IMG/VR virus record: IMGVR_UViG_3300027733_000034
Location: 1-64,000 of that record
Reading direction: 5' to 3' (one strand)
Length of the DNA stretch: 64,000 nt
Source of the DNA: a virus
The notes below the pieces were generated by a model that made no database searches, was not told where the DNA came from, and saw only the letters and a list, made by a program, of their open reading frames with translations. The translations under genes were made by a program, and so were the position numbers. Below are positions 8,069 through 30,913 of this stretch, piece after piece (the first letter of the stretch is position 1; every line of letters starts with the position of its first letter).

Positions 8069-8884
8069 TTAAATATAACCAAATTGTTGTTGATATTTTT
8101 GAAAATTGTTATCTATCCAGAGACAAACATCTTTGCCTAAAATTTCTTCATAGTCTATTTTAACTGGAGAAATTTTACGTCTGATGGTGTGTAGATCAGG
8201 AGTCAATCCATAAACCGCATCATCTTCTTTAATAGATTGTTCCACATTATCAAAATCATGGCTAAAAGGAGGTAGACCTAAATAATTGTAAATTCTATTT
8301 AATTCTGTAAAAGGGTTGGTGGTTAGATCTTCTGCTCTAATATATAGAACACTTTGATCTATACTTTCTAAAAAACATTGTTCCATTCTTTCTAGGGCCA
8401 TACCAACTGGTACTGATTTAGACCATTCTACTACTCTCTTGGCTGTAGAGGTTCCAGTCATTTTACTATGGTTTTGAATAGATTGATGACTTTCTTGTCT
8501 CTTGCGATAAATCTTTTCCATAGAAGCCATGATACTTTTAAGATCTCTTACCATACATATCATTTTAGGTTTGTATGGCATAAAGGCTTCAAACCAACGA
8601 TAGTGGATGGTTCCTCCACGGGTCTTAATACATAAATGGGGTCTATTACTATAAGATTCTGAATATCCTTTTAAACCGCCCCAACAAAAACCTCTCCAAG
8701 CCCTAACAGCTAACTCTGTGTCAATGGCTTTAACTTCTGGAGTGTTGGTATAATTCATACGGGCTCCATACAAATATTCTAAAACCGGATCTGTAGGAGT
8801 TGCTGCTATGCTTGAGTTTTGGTTAAGAATACATTGCAATAATGTAGACATACTCCGAGGCATAGAAGAATTAAAAAAGATCAT
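8069..8884 (-). CDS. sulfotransferase family protein (P-loop PAPS-binding fold)
   Basis: N-terminal SSMPRSMSTLL (5'-PSB-like), MVRDLKSIMASM (3'-PB-like), RAEDLT..P. Confidence 0.8.
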   Translation of the reverse strand: MIFFNSSMPRSMSTLLQCILNQNSSIAATPTDPVLEYLYGARMNYTNTPEVKAIDTELAVRAWRGFCWGGLKGYSESYSNRPHLCIKTRGGTIHYRWFEAFMPYKPKMICMVRDLKSIMASMEKIYRKRQESHQSIQNHSKMTGTSTAKRVVEWSKSVPVGMALERMEQCFLESIDQSVLYIRAEDLTTNPFTELNRIYNYLGLPPFSHDFDNVEQSIKEDDAVYGLTPDLHTIRRKISPVKIDYEEILGKDVCLWIDNNFQKYQQQFGYI

Positions 8885-21866: not shown

Positions 21867-21970
21867 TGGAGCCAACAGTCGGGATTGAACCGACGACCGG
21901 CGGTTTATAAGAACTGTCTCGGTTGGTGACAACTCTCAAAACCGCTGCTCTACCACTGAGCTATGTTGGC
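21867..21970 (-). tRNA. trnT: tRNA-Thr(TGT)-like gene with a 29-nt hairpin insertion (putative intron) in the anticodon
   Basis: perfect acceptor, D, anticodon and T stems plus CCA; 36-nt anticodon loop TTTG[AGAGTTGTCACCAACCGAGACAGTTCTTA]TAA. Confidence 0.8.
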
Positions 21971-22303: not shown

Positions 22304-23122
22304 ATGAAATCACGATCTGAGAGATGGAGTATCGGGGCTGGAAAATATAATGAAGAACAATTGAAACAAAGACAAGAAGATTATAACAAAAATCCTGATG
22401 AGTGTTTGTTCTGCAAAAACTCAATGCCATACATTGCTTTATATGAAAGAAACAAACGTAAATTCTGTAATAGATCTTGTGCAGCTAAACACAATAATCA
22501 AAATCGTCTACAATCTAATCTTACGCGCAAAACAAACTTTGTATATCAAAAAGGACTAACAAAAGAAGCATGTTGCATTATTTGTCAAGCAAACATTAAG
22601 ATAGGAAAAAACTATAGTGCAAAGAAGGCTAAATGTGTTGATTGTAAAATAACTAAAACAAAAATTATGATGTGTAAGTGTTGTTCTAAAGAATTTAATA
22701 CGTCTGCTATTCGTAAGTGTTGTTCTGTAGAATGTTCTAAACGTTTAAAACAAAGGGGAGGTAGTCTGGGTGGAAAAATATCAGCTTCAAAGATTGTTAA
22801 AAGATCTAGAGATGAAATAAAATTATATAGTTTCTGTAAAAATTATTTTAATTCTGTAAGACACAATGAAATTATCTCAGATGGTTGGGATGCAGATATC
22901 ATTATAGATGATTACAAATTGGCTATACTCTGGAATGGACCTTGGCATTACAAACAATTGTCACTAAAGAATCATTCTTTAGCTCAAGTACAAAACCGAG
23001 ATAAAATCAAAACAGATGTTCTAACATCAGCTGGATGGAAAGTTTTATTCTTTAATGATAATAAATATACTCCAGAAAAGGCATTTCAATTTATAAAAGA
23101 AAGTTGCAGGGGCGGGATTTGA
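22304..23122 (+). CDS. putative homing endonuclease (multiple Cys-rich Zn ribbons, C-terminal Vsr/DUF559-like PD-(D/E)xK domain)
   Basis: several CxxC and FCNRSC/CCSVEC motifs; WDADI...LAILWNGPWHY...RDKIK...GW; antisense to the tRNA array. Confidence 0.75.
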   Translation: MKSRSERWSIGAGKYNEEQLKQRQEDYNKNPDECLFCKNSMPYIALYERNKRKFCNRSCAAKHNNQNRLQSNLTRKTNFVYQKGLTKEACCIICQANIKIGKNYSAKKAKCVDCKITKTKIMMCKCCSKEFNTSAIRKCCSVECSKRLKQRGGSLGGKISASKIVKRSRDEIKLYSFCKNYFNSVRHNEIISDGWDADIIIDDYKLAILWNGPWHYKQLSLKNHSLAQVQNRDKIKTDVLTSAGWKVLFFNDNKYTPEKAFQFIKESCRGGI

Positions 23123-23194
23123 ACCACTTATGCGCGTTTTAGTAGCTTCTTGGTTATGAGCCAAGCTAGATCGACCAGACTTCTATACCCTGCT
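23104..23194 (-). tRNA. initiator-type tRNA-Met(CAT) with extra nucleotides in the variable/T region, no encoded CCA
   Basis: A1xA72 mismatch, CTTGG-CT-CAT-AA-CCAAG, TTCAAAT T-loop; 25 nt instead of about 10 between the anticodon stem and T-loop. Confidence 0.65.
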
Positions 23195-23288
23195 ATTAAG
23201 ATGTGAAAGAACTAACCGCCTTCCCACTTGACGACCCCGCGGTTGATGTAATAATTATACTACAGGGGTTAATGGGAAACCACCTTTT

Positions 23289-23882: not shown

Positions 23883-23914
23883 TTACTTACTTATAAGACA
23901 TAAGTAATAATACC

Positions 23915-24274
23915 ATGATAAGACATCTTAAAGCTCTCAAAGAATCTTTAGAAGGAAAGCCTCTTGCTGTGAGATCTTCTCATTGGTCTACTGTTAGAAA
24001 ACATCATCTTCAAAAACAACCTACCTGTGCGGCTTGTGGGGGTACACAAAAATTACAGGTTCATCACAAACAACCTTATCATTTGCATCCGGACTTAGAA
24101 CTAGAACCTACCAATCTTATTACTCTGTGTGAATATGGAGACATTGATTGTCATTTTAACATAGGTCATTATAGAGATTGGAAATCTTTTAATCCTAATG
24201 TGGAATTAGATGCTGCAGAAGAATTGTCTAGTCTCTCCCAGTGTCACACCACTTCTCAACCAGGTAAACCCTAA
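23915..24274 (+). CDS. HNH endonuclease family protein
   Basis: CAACG..LQVHHK.P....P.L.L..NLITLC....CH..GH. Confidence 0.8.
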   Translation: MIRHLKALKESLEGKPLAVRSSHWSTVRKHHLQKQPTCAACGGTQKLQVHHKQPYHLHPDLELEPTNLITLCEYGDIDCHFNIGHYRDWKSFNPNVELDAAEELSSLSQCHTTSQPGKP

Positions 24275-24432
24275 GGAATCCTTAATCAAGCTCAGAGAGG
24301 CCTTCAGCCTTCGGCAGGTGTCACTCCCCAATTGGGGGAAGTGTCTAGTCTCTCCTAGAGTCACACCACTTGTATCGCCCGGATATGTCCAGGCCGTTCT
24401 CCTCCGTGATAACCACAGAAGAGGCAGGTGTC
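24225..24432 (-). ncRNA. tandem pair of an unassigned structured RNA motif
   Basis: both units begin GACACCTGCC and end AAGTGGTGTGACnCTRGGAGAGACTAGACA (28/30 identical) with unrelated hairpin-rich interiors. Confidence 0.65.
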
Positions 24433-24437
24433 GCAAT

Positions 24438-24511
24438 CTCAGCAGGGTTTACGGTCTGCTACGTTCCAATTACAGACTTACCTAAATACCAGAGGGGTCG
24501 TGGTTACTGAG
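24438..24511 (-). ncRNA. structured RNA domain 3' of tRNA-Val
   Basis: closing stem CTCAGTA/TGCTGAG with internal hairpins ACCA/TGGT and GTCTGT/GCAGAC. Confidence 0.4.
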
Positions 24512-24516
24512 AAAAG

Positions 24517-24592
24517 TGGTGCTTGGGGTGGGACTCGAACCCACGATAATCTGCGTGTAAAGCAGGTACTTTAGCCACTAAGTTACCCAAGC
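24517..24592 (-). tRNA. trnV: tRNA-Val(TAC)
   Basis: TT-TAC-AC loop, perfect acceptor, CCA. Confidence 0.95.
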
Positions 24593-24606
24593 ATAAAAAG
24601 TAAAAA

Positions 24607-24677
24607 TAGGCCTGGGTGGAGTCGAACCACCACTACCTCTTTCAAAGAGAGGTGCACTGCCATTATGCAACAGGCCT
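24607..24677 (-). tRNA. trnQ: tRNA-Gln(TTG), no encoded CCA
   Basis: CCTCT-CT-TTG-AA-AGAGG; AGGCCTG/CAGGCCT acceptor. Confidence 0.88.
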
Positions 24678-24701
24678 GTGTTGCCATTATACCAATGGAC
24701 T
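24678..24701 (-). pseudogene. tRNA-Gln-like 5' fragment fused to the intact tRNA-Gln
   Basis: AGTCCAT TG GTATAATGGCAACAC directly abutting position 1 of tRNA-Gln. Confidence 0.5.
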
Positions 24702-29881: not shown

Positions 29882-30913
29882 TTAATCTTTGAAATTTTGA
29901 TTAATAATTTTTACACTAAGCATTTTCTGTAATTTCTTACTATACATCAATTCATTATTTTGATTATAACCACGGAAGACAATGCCTTCTGCTGGTTTAT
30001 CATTAGGATACTTGATAGTATTGACCCAATTTTGCAATTCATCTATAGTTGAGAGGTTGAAATGTTTAAATAATTTAACAACTGGAACTCCTGGAATATT
30101 TGAATCAACTCCTAGACCATCGACCCAATTCAAAGGAAGAACTGGCTTCCGAGAAGGTACTTCAAACATGTTAAAGAGATATAAACTAACCTCTGGATAA
30201 CCAGCTGGATTACCTTGAATACCAGGTCCAGCAATTTCTCCTTGAATACAAAATCCAGGTTTAAGATTTTCTTGGATATTATATTTTCGAGCCATTTTCC
30301 AGTATACATTTTCGGTAGTATCTTTAAGCTCTAGATTACGAGAACAAACTCGAAAAGTACCATCCAATTCTTTAATATAAGTTGCAGAGGTTCCATCTAT
30401 TTTAAGAGTAGCTTCTACCCATTCAGCTTCTCCCAATTCATCTAATGCTTCTATGTTAGATTTAAGATTGTCTTCATCCGTTTTAGAAACCAAATGAGTG
30501 GGAAAGTCTCCTTTAACTTGTCCGGCTAGTTGAACTGGAATTGGTTTTTCATATTTGGTAATACCAAGCATACTAGCCAGAGAAACATCTTCAGAAGAAT
30601 CATCCATATGATCCCAGACTTCTTGAGCACTAACCAAAGTCTTAGGAAAGATGAGACCTTGAGAAATAGCTCCGCGAAGCTTGGCGGTCTTAACTCGGAT
30701 AGGTTTAGAAGGATCATTCTTATCCCAAAGAAATTTATTCCATTCTCTAGGAGTGAGGACGGTATCAATAGGAACAAAAATAATTTGATCACCTATTTTA
30801 TATTCATCTTTCTTGATAACACTTTGCCAACCCAGAACTCTAGCCAGTTCAATTTTATCGGCTCCTTCTATAGGAAGAATTTCTGAGATAATTTCTAGAG
30901 ATGCTAATTTCAT
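29882..30913 (-). CDS. RNA ligase, DRB0094/Rnl5 family
   Basis: N-terminal OB (LAS..I..PIEGADKIELA.V.GW), KIDGTS, CSRN, QGEIAGPGIQGN, EGIV, VKIIN. Confidence 0.9.
   Translation of the reverse strand: MKLASLEIISEILPIEGADKIELARVLGWQSVIKKDEYKIGDQIIFVPIDTVLTPREWNKFLWDKNDPSKPIRVKTAKLRGAISQGLIFPKTLVSAQEVWDHMDDSSEDVSLASMLGITKYEKPIPVQLAGQVKGDFPTHLVSKTDEDNLKSNIEALDELGEAEWVEATLKIDGTSATYIKELDGTFRVCSRNLELKDTTENVYWKMARKYNIQENLKPGFCIQGEIAGPGIQGNPAGYPEVSLYLFNMFEVPSRKPVLPLNWVDGLGVDSNIPGVPVVKLFKHFNLSTIDELQNWVNTIKYPNDKPAEGIVFRGYNQNNELMYSKKLQKMLSVKIINQNFKD

What the first reader, a model, noticed from the sequence alone, without database searches (positions are those of the whole stretch)
24225..24432. Tandem pair of an unrecognised structured ncRNA motif inside the tRNA array
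Seen on the minus strand: two units (24432-24342 and 24322-24225) both start GACACCTGCC and end AAGTGGTGTGAC(T/A)CT(A/G)GGAGAGACTAGACA. ACACC pairs with GGTGT to close each unit, and a CTRG-GAGAGA-CTAG hairpin follows. The interiors differ in sequence but are hairpin-rich (TCTTCTGTG/CACGGAGGA, GCCTGGA/TCCGGGC; GCC-GAA-GGC, AAGG/CCTT). A CCCC/GGGG hairpin separates the units. Conserved ends with variable structured interiors in a GC-rich island is the signature of a functional RNA family (ribozyme, protein sponge or antitoxin-like RNA). I cannot assign it to a family.
Basis: partly seen in the sequence, partly recalled or inferred. Interest (0 to 1): 0.7.

Follow-up and report, generated by a model that had tools for sequence, protein, structure and literature searches.

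The report
Widespread mobile-element RNA handle, tandem pair
The two repeats are real small structured RNAs built on a nearly invariant 45-base "handle" that also occurs in many other phages, plasmids and bacterial islands, matches no catalogued RNA family, and has no known function.

Summary
On the minus strand, 24432-24342 and 24322-24225 share the stated ends (0 chance matches expected for the 3' motif). The whole 131.5-kb virus record has only these two copies.

They belong to a large family. A 24-base pattern found 32 IMG/VR loci. An 18-base pattern found 122 places in bacterial contigs, and 71 of them also carry the 5' partner and the hairpin. The family also occurs in Salinibacter virus M31CR41-3, Marinobacter phage PS3 and two plasmids.

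The common core is a "handle". It has helix P1 (5 bp, a bulged U, then G·U and C-G) ending in a 3-nt loop where 0 to about 70 nt of folded cargo is inserted. A GAC linker follows, then hairpin P4 with an invariant GAGAGA loop. Both helices covary.

Rfam 15 has no match. I found no conserved partner gene, and Pfam found no Ro60 domain in 6 phage records.

Best reading (about 0.4): modular small RNAs released from tRNA-array transcripts, whose handle docks a conserved, probably host, factor. Main rival (about 0.25): an undescribed self-cleaving or processing module. The function is untested.

The parts
24342..24434 (-). Unit 1, a class A member: handle plus two cargo hairpins. The conserved GC prefix is at 24434-24433.
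   Evidence: R1 covariance model, 41.4 bits, E 5.1e-10. MFE -37 kcal/mol, z -3.59. Aligned with 15 relatives.
24424..24431 (-). Unit 1, P1 5' strand: ACACC 24431-24427, bulged U 24426, GC 24425-24424.
   Evidence: Pairs counted. G8·U and C9-G are each kept in 16 of 16 class A members.
24399..24423 (-). Unit 1, cargo hairpin P2.
   Evidence: RNAfold. All 6 homologous pairs have changes on one or both sides in the class A alignment; 5 of them have changes on both sides.
24377..24394 (-). Unit 1, cargo hairpin P3.
   Evidence: RNAfold and class A covariation. A metatranscriptome contig carries C to U at 24381 on this strand, which turns a G-C pair into G·U.
24360..24369 (-). Unit 1: GU 24369-24368, P1 3' strand GGUGU 24367-24363, and GAC linker 24362-24360.
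24344..24359 (-). Unit 1, hairpin P4: stem UCUAG/CUAGA with loop GAGAGA at 24354-24349.
   Evidence: The loop is invariant in 48 of 48 phage units, which were found with a pattern that fixed it.
24326..24337 (-). Spacer hairpin CCCCAAUUGGGG between the two units.
   Evidence: The same element lies between units in 13 places, including the window, with CCTCC/GGAGA covariation.
24225..24324 (-). Unit 2, a divergent class B member. P1 5' strand 24321-24317, P1 3' strand 24250-24246, GAC 24245-24243, P4 24241-24228 with GAGAGA at 24237-24232.
   Evidence: R1, 37.7 bits, E 5.5e-09. Aligned with 16 class B relatives. Its own MFE is not significant.
24433..24516 (-). 84-nt conserved element E, lying between the tRNA-Val 3' end and unit 1. 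It is probably part of the same transcript and the same composite.
   Evidence: Present in 14 distinct places, always directly upstream of a class A unit. Its outer stem (CUCAG/CUGAG, UUGGG/CCCAA, UCGAG/CUCGA, CUUAG/CUAAG) and an inner 5-bp stem covary by my inspection. No Rfam hit.
23915..24274 (+). HNH endonuclease ORF on the opposite strand. Its last 50 nt overlap the 3' part of unit 2. It is context, not part of the RNA.
   Evidence: ORF list. PHROG HNH families, best E 4.3e-10. Pfam HNH, 20.6 bits, just under the 21.4 cut-off.

Best explanation
The two units are tandem members of a widespread, uncatalogued family of small structured RNAs carried by mobile genetic elements. Every member has the same roughly 45-nt handle. 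Its parts are: (G)C-G, then helix P1 (ACACC/GGUGU, a bulged U, then G·U and C-G) capped by a C-N-A triloop, then a GAC linker, then hairpin P4 showing an invariant GAGAGA loop. The triloop is an insertion point. It is empty in most bacterial copies. In this phage it carries two different folded cargo domains (classes A and B).

Shown here: the fold, its covariation, its strand, its distribution, and its presence in contigs from RNA libraries.

Inferred: in this phage, element E, unit 1, the spacer hairpin and unit 2 are transcribed with the minus-strand tRNA array. They are cut out as stable small RNAs by the nucleases that mature the flanking tRNAs, in the way T4 species 1 and 2 RNAs are.

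Also inferred: the handle is a docking site for one conserved factor. That factor is probably a host factor, because no element-encoded gene travels with the handle. The cargo would then supply a second activity (decoy, sponge or tether), as in Y RNA-type RNAs that combine a handle with a cargo. The factor and the benefit to the element are unknown.

My odds: real conserved RNA family, about 0.95. This docking mechanism, about 0.4.
For: Family and fold:
- 32 of 32 IMG/VR loci found by the pattern carry units, and 29 of them carry two or more in tandem.
- 69 units, 48 of them distinct, were extracted.
- P1 and P4 are 98.9% paired with 72 compensated cells, and 0 of 500 shuffles reached the score.
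- Class A has 12 of 23 pairs compensated and class B 9 of 20.
- P4 covaries in 47 bacterial and phage minimal units.
- In PS3 the P4 closing pair is flipped while GAGAGA is kept.

RNA rather than duplex DNA:
- The P4 pair 98/107 is G·U in 24 of 48 units.
- Units lie on the tRNA strand in 17 of 17 tRNA-bearing loci.

Processing context:
- The last unit ends 5-19 nt before a tRNA or tmRNA in 10 loci.
- Element E starts a few nt after a tRNA CCA end.
- Contigs from two metatranscriptome runs cover 23932-24580 and 24247-24545.

Handle rather than plain scaffold helix:
- P1 base identities are nearly fixed across phyla; only 2 of 5 pairs vary.
- A bulged U and a G·U are kept in 44 of 47 and 16 of 16 members.
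- The insertion site points away from the core.
- Cargo classes are themselves conserved and covary.

Stand-alone gene: in Marinobacter phage PS3 the handle follows GGA hairpins and precedes a strong terminator.

No travelling partner:
- No protein cluster was shared beyond close relatives among 759 neighbouring ORFs of the bacterial loci.
- The same held for 593 neighbouring ORFs of the phage loci.

Precedent: earlier reports of this scan describe phage arrays of handle-plus-cargo RNAs built on a different handle.
Against: No binding partner is identified and nothing shows binding.

Maturation is not shown. Only contigs could be laid, and they show no RNA ends and no strand. DNA carry-over in the RNA libraries cannot be excluded.

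In the window, the next tRNA downstream of unit 2 is over 1 kb away, so release by RNase P is not evident here.

The apparent invariance of GGUGUGAC and GGAGAGAC is inflated, because my searches fixed these letters. The covariance model built from those hits inherits the bias.

About 29 conserved positions in 45 nt also fit a ribozyme or an aptamer.

Many copies lie in 5' leaders or just after stop codons. That also fits a cis-acting role.

Unit 2 alone does not fold better than shuffled sequence.
Confidence: 0.4

Rival explanations
1. The handle is an undescribed small self-cleaving ribozyme, or an obligatory nuclease-recognition module. It would punctuate polycistronic transcripts of mobile elements by defining the ends of tRNAs, cargo RNAs and mRNAs.
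For: The core is small (41-48 nt) and has about 29 conserved positions. Its spread is sporadic and element-borne: 4 of 151 Pseudomonadota genomes, counting the centre genome, and 1-4 copies in 5 genomes. Units occur in tandem. The handle tolerates large inserts in a loop. It lies between tRNAs, between ORFs and at operon ends. The conserved unpaired (G)C-G 5' of P1 could hold a cleavage site. Precedent: HDV-like theta ribozymes sit next to phage tRNAs (PMC10879173, passages read).
Against: No known ribozyme family matches in Rfam 15. The minimal unit has no room for a double pseudoknot, and I saw no Watson-Crick pseudoknot partner for the conserved loops. Helix P1 is conserved in sequence and not only in pairing, which is unusual for a ribozyme helix. 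PS3 carries the handle inside what looks like a promoter-to-terminator small RNA gene. No cleavage data exist.
Confidence: 0.25
2. The handle is a cis-acting regulatory element, such as a ligand-sensing aptamer, a translation or ribosome-loading element that uses the GGAG of the P4 loop, or a processive anti-termination signal for long untranslated or foreign operons.
For: In 4 cases the start codon lies 12-17 nt after GGAGAGAC with no other Shine-Dalgarno-like sequence between them (L009, L010, L029, L089). Many copies are in 5' leaders. Tandem copies are known for some riboswitches (recalled, not tested). Untranslated tRNA arrays would benefit from anti-termination (inference).
Against: Downstream genes are unrelated and start-codon distances run from 12 to 83 nt. 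Many units are followed by tRNAs or tmRNA rather than ORFs. Insertion of 10-70 nt into the P1 loop argues against a compact ligand pocket there. In PS3 the P4 closing pair is C-G, so GGAG is lost, and a terminator follows directly.
Confidence: 0.12
3. It is a described RNA that is absent from Rfam 15 and that I failed to recognise.
For: A motif this common could already be in print.
Against: There is no Rfam match in five searches that covered units. No paper held two of the four motif strings in a relevant context. Earlier reports of this scan held no look-alike outside this window.
Confidence: 0.1
4. It is a DNA-level site: a protein operator or palindrome, a recombination or packaging site, or a single-stranded DNA origin.
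For: P1 and the spacer hairpin are palindrome-like. Copies lie near integrases, primases and terminase genes. Symmetric changes in both half-sites could mimic covariation.
Against: G·U pairs would be C·A mismatches on the other strand (24 of 48 at one P4 pair). The strand is fixed relative to tRNAs in 17 of 17 loci. Inserts between the P1 halves vary from 0 to about 70 nt and are themselves folded. The region is covered by contigs of RNA libraries. Single-stranded DNA folding is not excluded by the G·T pairs.
Confidence: 0.04

Closest known systems
T4 species 1 and species 2 RNAs (rnaC, rnaD)
   Same: They are small stable RNAs of unknown function, encoded in tandem on the tRNA strand inside a phage tRNA cluster, next to a homing endonuclease gene (annotation of NC_000866).
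   Different: There is no sequence or model similarity: R1 with filters off gave no hit on the rnaC/rnaD strand better than E 6. rnaC carries a tRNA-like T arm, and the present units do not.
Y RNAs (YrlA/YrlB) with Ro60/Rsr, and the phage handle-plus-cargo arrays reported earlier in this scan
   Same: The architecture is modular: a conserved end-closing handle plus a variable folded module. They occur as tandem arrays in phages, often next to tRNA genes (PMC4201824, passages and section 6 read).
   Different: The handle differs. YrlA has GNCGAAN0-1G, and the earlier scan families have a hairpin plus ACAGCAA or ACAAU. Here it is ACACC/GGUGU, GAC and a GAGAGA hairpin. There is no Rfam YrlA hit. 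I saw no T or D arm mimic. Pfam found no TROVE gene in 6 phage records.
HDV-like theta ribozymes of gut phages
   Same: They are small conserved RNAs placed next to phage tRNA genes and are thought to help process tRNA transcripts (PMC10879173, passages read).
   Different: Theta ribozymes lie within 5 nt of the tRNA at their cleavage site and have the HDV fold with a catalytic C in J4/2. Here the last unit ends 5-19 nt upstream of the next tRNA or tmRNA 5' end in 10 loci. Only 8 nt separate the P1 strands in minimal units. The paper's descriptor is in a supplementary figure that I could not see.
HK022 put RNAs
   Same: They are two-hairpin RNAs of mobile elements that act without an element-encoded protein, on a conserved host machine, RNA polymerase (PMC9378689, passages read).
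   Different: put RNAs are about 70 nt with two long stems, and only ten sequences are known, all from lambdoid phages. They sit downstream of early promoters. I could not compare the sequences because the alignment is in a supplement.

Membership tests
Any Rfam 15 family (4227 models, including hammerhead, twister, twister-sister, pistol, hatchet, HDV, YrlA, GOLLD, ROOL, c4) | Score at or above the family's gathering threshold. | tested here: not met
   Whole window: only tRNA hits. Window 23900-24700 at E up to 10: the only hit overlapping the units is a Leptospira sRNA model at 16.9 bits against a 112-bit threshold. Eight bacterial loci: only one tRNA. PS3 region: 0 hits. L157 unit: one snoRNA model at 12.6 bits.
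HDV-like / theta ribozymes | Nested double pseudoknot (P1, P1.1, P2, P3, P4) with a catalytic C in J4/2. | tested here: not met
   Minimal units have 8-9 nt between the two P1 strands, too few to hold P2 and P3. The first P1 position would be G opposite G. There is no Rfam HDV hit. This rests on my inspection of the architecture.
HDV-like / theta ribozymes | Cleavage site within about 5 nt of the tRNA. | tested here: not met
   The last unit ends 5-19 nt before the next tRNA or tmRNA start in 10 loci. Unit 5' ends lie 7 to over 80 nt after tRNA ends.
YrlA-type Y RNA | GNCGAAN0-1G motif near the 5' end and tRNA-like T and D arms (PMC4201824, section 6). | tested here: not met
   By inspection, units 1 and 2 have no such motif and no T-arm sequence. 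No RF02553 hit.
YrlA-type Y RNA | Encoded next to a Ro60/TROVE gene. | tested here: inconclusive
   Pfam TROVE gave 0 of 1 (own record) and 0 of 5 other phage records. The records are 53-76% complete. Earlier scan reports say that phage Ro60-like proteins can be too diverged for Pfam.
TIGR arrays (Tas guide RNAs) | 36-nt units of two alternating 8-12-nt repeats with 9-nt spacers, next to a Nop-domain gene (PMC12045711, passages read). | tested here: not met
   Units are 41-101 nt with folded, covarying interiors. I did not search for a Nop-domain gene.
CsrA/Rsm sponge RNAs | GGA in the loops of several short hairpins (recalled). | tested here: inconclusive
   The P4 loop region reads GGAGAGAC in most units. 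In PS3 the closing pair is C-G, so GGA is lost while GAGAGA is kept. The Marinobacter copies do carry extra AGGA and CGGA hairpins upstream of the handle. The family also occurs in cyanobacterial contigs.
T4 rnaC/rnaD | Sequence similarity to the T4 RNAs. No family model exists. | tested here: not met
   R1 with filters off on T4 69500-74500 gave one hit at 9.7 bits on the other strand, inside the tRNA-Ser gene, and nothing on rnaC or rnaD.
Integron attC sites | R''/L''...L'/R' core sites with GTTRRRY (recalled, from no call). | not tested
   I considered this because of cassette-like spacing in L076, L101 and L157. By eye the ends are not of the attC type. I did not search for an integron integrase.

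The most novel reading that the evidence does not exclude
The handle is the core of a new class of catalytic or ribonucleoprotein RNA shared by phages, plasmids and genomic islands across bacterial phyla. One version is a previously unseen small self-cleaving ribozyme. The other is a universal docking module through which mobile elements couple interchangeable cargo RNAs (tRNA-anticodon-like decoys, GGA sponges, the class A and B domains) to one conserved host machine.
Probability: 0.3. Interest if true: 0.9.

Novelty: new variant of a known kind. Interest (0 to 1): 0.68.

Why it matters
If the reading holds, mobile elements from freshwater jumbo phages to marine plasmids share one compact RNA module. 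About 29 of its roughly 45 positions are fixed across phyla. Conservation of that degree is usually seen only in ribozymes, riboswitches or binding sites for universal machines. Identifying its partner or its chemistry would explain part of the unexplained RNA content of phage tRNA arrays. It could also add a new tool: a 45-nt scaffold that tolerates large inserts. It can be tested directly, because cultured systems carry it: Salinibacter virus M31CR41-3, Marinobacter phage PS3, and plasmids of Sedimenticola and Microbulbifer.

Tried and rejected
Phage BLAST with the 371-nt region found nothing. E. coli genomes have no match to a minimal unit.

Phage-RNA-polymerase promoter reading. I recalled a loose likeness of the 3' motif to T7/SP6-type promoters. 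I dropped it because the stem flanking GAGAGA covaries and contains G·U pairs.

CRISPR-like reading, with conserved ends as repeats and interiors as spacers. I dropped it because the P1 variants (ACACA with UGUGU, ACGCC with GGCGU) pair within a unit, not across units.

TIGR arrays, attC sites, CsrA sponges, HDV/theta, hatchet and Y RNA: see the membership tests. For hatchet I saw only two abstracts, which describe four helices, plus the negative Rfam result.

DUF3310 small protein as a partner. It lies near units in 7 phage loci, but Pfam found it in 0 of 5 other unit-bearing records. That search matched nothing in its control genomes either, so the negative is weak.

RNA ligase as a partner. 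It is syntenic in only 5 related loci.

Self-fold of unit 2: not significant.

RNA-library contigs cover the units but give no ends, no strand and no expression level. Stretches of the laid region that lack RNA cover are not evidence of anything.

A recalled likeness of P1 to part of 16S rRNA helix 44 covers only a 4-5-bp helix. I treat it as chance.

The literature searches found no description of this motif. These include the theta ribozyme descriptor, the put alignment and the YrlA models, and they may bear on those comparisons.

Full report
**What is there.** The window is the first 64 kb of a 131.5-kb IMG/VR virus record estimated to be 61% complete. Its minus strand carries a tRNA array from about 19.5 to 24.9 kb, with 17 ARAGORN calls and 16 Rfam tRNA hits. 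Downstream of tRNA-Val (24592-24517), reading the minus strand, lie four features:
- an 84-nt stretch (24516-24433);
- unit 1 (24432-24342);
- a CCCCAAUUGGGG hairpin (24337-24326);
- unit 2 (24322-24225).

Both units begin GACACCTGCC. Both end with the 26-nt motif GGTGTGAC(T/A)CT(A/G)GGAGAGACTAGACA. That motif occurs twice in the window and never in 100 shuffles, even at up to 3 mismatches. The whole virus record holds no further copy by pattern or by covariance model. G+C is 0.51-0.535 here, against about 0.31-0.43 in the neighbouring ORF stretches. An HNH endonuclease ORF on the plus strand (23915-24274) runs 50 nt into unit 2.

**The units have many relatives.** An exact 24-base pattern from the 3' motif found 32 IMG/VR loci. 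A looser expression found 75 3'-motif sites in those loci plus the own record. Of the 32 loci, 29 held two to four sites in tandem. For 69 of the 75 sites an exact 5' complement of the P1 strand preceded by G lay upstream. The other six either were cut by a contig end or had a mismatch or a diverged 5' strand. The 69 units reduce to 48 distinct sequences of 41-101 nt.

By my arithmetic about 70 chance matches are expected for equal base frequencies. However, 71 of the 122 also have GACACC within 120 nt upstream and at least 4 pairs around GGAGAGAC. The contig titles name the following:
- Marinobacter, Microbulbifer, Sedimenticola and other Gammaproteobacteria;
- Acidobacteriota, Planctomycetota and Gemmatimonadota;
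- cyanobacteria;
- Xenorhabdus, which carries a diverged 5' strand.

BLAST added Salinibacter virus M31CR41-3, Marinobacter phage PS3 and plasmids of Sedimenticola, Microbulbifer and others. A covariance model (R1, built from 47 minimal units) scores the two window units at 41.4 and 37.7 bits and nothing else in the window above 7.4 bits. It found 81 matches in 35 loci. It also found 1-4 copies in each of five bacterial genomes and matches in 4 of 151 sampled Pseudomonadota genomes, counting the centre genome. The spread is therefore wide but sporadic, as expected for something carried by mobile elements.

**Anatomy.** The shortest members are 41-48 nt. They show that the conserved ends are one compact core and the interiors are inserts. 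The core has these parts:
- a conserved (G)C-G;
- P1, which is ACACC paired with GGUGU;
- a bulged U;
- two further pairs, G·U and C-G (44 and 42 of 47 minimal units; 16 of 16 class A units);
- a C-N-A triloop;
- a GAC linker plus 0-3 nt;
- P4, a stem of 3-6 pairs closed by G-C around GAGAGA.

On the 48 phage units, P1 and P4 are 98.9% paired and 6 of 10 pairs show changes on both sides. Sliding the partners drops pairing to 20-46%, and 0 of 500 shuffles reach the score. P1 varies as ACACA/UGUGU (9 units) and ACGCC/GGCGU (6 units). P4 shows up to five pair types per position. I required exact P1 complementarity when extracting units, so the P1 figure is partly built in. P4 was not constrained. 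The letters GGUGUGAC and GGAGAGAC were fixed by my search patterns, so their apparent invariance is overstated. Variants seen by chance include GUCGAGAC and GGCGAGAC before P4. PS3 has a C-G closing pair with GAGAGA kept.

**Cargo.** Unit 1 belongs to a class of 16 aligned members in which the triloop is replaced by two hairpins. Twelve of its 23 consensus pairs show compensated changes. Unit 2 is a divergent member of a class of 17. There the first insert hairpin is NNNNGGC-UCCAU-GCCNNNN and covaries (7 C-G against 7 U-A at its base). Unit 2 forms 5 of those 7 pairs.

In 14 distinct places the class A unit is preceded directly by the 84-nt element E. E itself begins a few nt after a tRNA CCA end, and its outer and inner stems covary by my inspection. 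In 13 places, including the window, the CCCCAAUUGGGG hairpin separates a class A unit from the next unit. The window therefore holds a conserved composite: E, then A, then the hairpin, then B.

**Context.** Units lie on the tRNA strand in 17 of 17 loci that have tRNAs. The last unit of an array ends 5-19 nt before a tRNA or tmRNA in 10 loci, including the cultured Salinibacter virus (5 nt before tRNA-Asp). In the window and four other loci the next tRNA is more than 240 nt away.

In G+C-rich small phages without tRNAs, arrays lie in intergenic spacers: after a major head gene in L029, and before a terminase-portal block in L008. In PS3 the handle follows GGA-loop hairpins and precedes a strong terminator. 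A promoter-like TTGATC-16-TAAACT lies upstream by my reading, near the integrase. Marinobacter chromosomes hold similar loci, one of them about 250 nt after a tRNA.

Other copies lie in these places:
- 51 nt after trbI of a conjugative plasmid;
- in the early region of a 43.5-kb plasmid that carries a replicative helicase;
- before P4-type primase or replication genes;
- three times within 12 kb of a Pseudomonadales genome, among an AAA_13/AAA_21 ATPase, an IS3 transposase and a DUF4268 protein.

No protein family recurs beside the motif beyond close relatives.

**Expression.** Contigs of two lake metatranscriptome runs cover 23932-24580 and 24247-24545 at 99% identity or more. They cannot show strand, ends or level, and DNA carry-over is possible. 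One of them carries a change that turns a G-C pair of unit 1's P3 into G·U.

**What it is not.** No Rfam 15 family matches in five searches that covered units. T4 rnaC and rnaD share the context but not the model. The HDV/theta fold cannot be accommodated, and the position relative to tRNAs differs (membership tests; PMC10879173, passages). YrlA features and a Pfam-detectable Ro60 gene are absent (PMC4201824, section 6). The handle-plus-cargo arrays described earlier in this scan use a different handle. TIGR units are 36 nt with 9-nt spacers (PMC12045711, passages).

**How it most likely works.** The shown facts are a strand-specific, covarying, compact core with a permissive insertion site. 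It is carried by unrelated mobile elements, often co-oriented with and abutting tRNA genes, and no partner gene travels with it.

From these facts I infer that the units are small RNAs released from tRNA-array or operon transcripts. I further infer that the handle is recognised by one conserved factor and the inserts supply variable functions (about 0.4).

The main rival is that the core is itself catalytic or is a nuclease punctuation mark (about 0.25). The degree of conservation, the tandem copies and the element-borne, sporadic spread fit that rival equally well. The sequence-conserved P1 helix, the conserved cargo classes and the PS3 small-RNA-like gene lean towards docking. A cis-regulatory role (0.12), a known RNA that I missed (0.1) and a DNA-level site (0.04) remain possible.

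**Novelty and score.** As a sequence family it is uncatalogued in Rfam 15, and I did not find it in six literature searches. As a kind of thing, a modular small RNA in phage tRNA arrays, it has precedents. I therefore rate it a new variant of a known kind, with a 0.3 chance that it is a new ribozyme or ribonucleoprotein class. Interest: 0.68.

Noticed in passing
window 24433-24516 (-): An 84-nt conserved element lies between tRNA-Val and unit 1. It occurs in 14 distinct places, always in the order tRNA CCA end, element, class A unit. Its outer stem and an inner 5-bp stem covary. One loop reads like a tRNA-Tyr-type anticodon loop in several relatives; that likeness is recalled and not tested. 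No Rfam hit.
   Followed up: partly
window 21870-21970 (-): Rfam calls a 101-nt tRNA here (58.6 bits) that ARAGORN does not report. It carries an insert of about 30 nt just 5' of an anticodon loop reading CUUAUAA. This may be an intron or a built-in handle like those described in earlier reports of this scan.
   Followed up: no
window 23103-23195 (-) and 22304-23122 (+): ARAGORN calls a 93-nt tRNA-Met with the anticodon at position 38. Rfam does not report it at gathering score. It overlaps the end of a 272-aa plus-strand ORF that has a weak HNH PHROG hit (E 3e-05).
   Followed up: no
window 29882-30913 (-): RNA ligase with an N-terminal PHA02142 OB-fold domain (Pfam E 4.8e-22 and 1.2e-15). 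It is syntenic with the RNA composite in four related loci (L012, L016, L019, L034).
   Followed up: partly
L155 2900-3090 (Marinobacter phage PS3, MF959999.1 about 8370-8560): An unannotated small-RNA-like gene near the integrase. It has promoter-like hexamers, AGGA-loop hairpins, the handle with a flipped P4 closing pair, and then a strong terminator. Similar loci occur in several Marinobacter chromosomes.
   Followed up: partly
L157 (G002:C1:2471000-2490900): Three handle copies within 12 kb of a Pseudomonadales genome, one of them degenerate. They are interleaved with an AAA_13/AAA_21 ATPase, an IS3 transposase and a DUF4268/NucS-like protein. The region looks like a defence or cassette island.
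   Followed up: partly
L025 1122-1547; L034 2877-3269: Phage-encoded tmRNA genes start 19 and 10 nt after the last handle unit.
   Followed up: no
L156 2364-2531 (MF580962.1 6220-6387): A CDS annotated as a hypothetical protein in Salinibacter virus M31CR41-3 overlaps the handle unit that precedes tRNA-Asp. It is probably not a gene.
   Followed up: no
L074 (contig of a Bacteriovoracaceae MAG): This contig carries the full phage-type composite (element E, class A unit, spacer hairpin, class B unit, minimal unit). It is probably phage DNA binned with the MAG.
   Followed up: no
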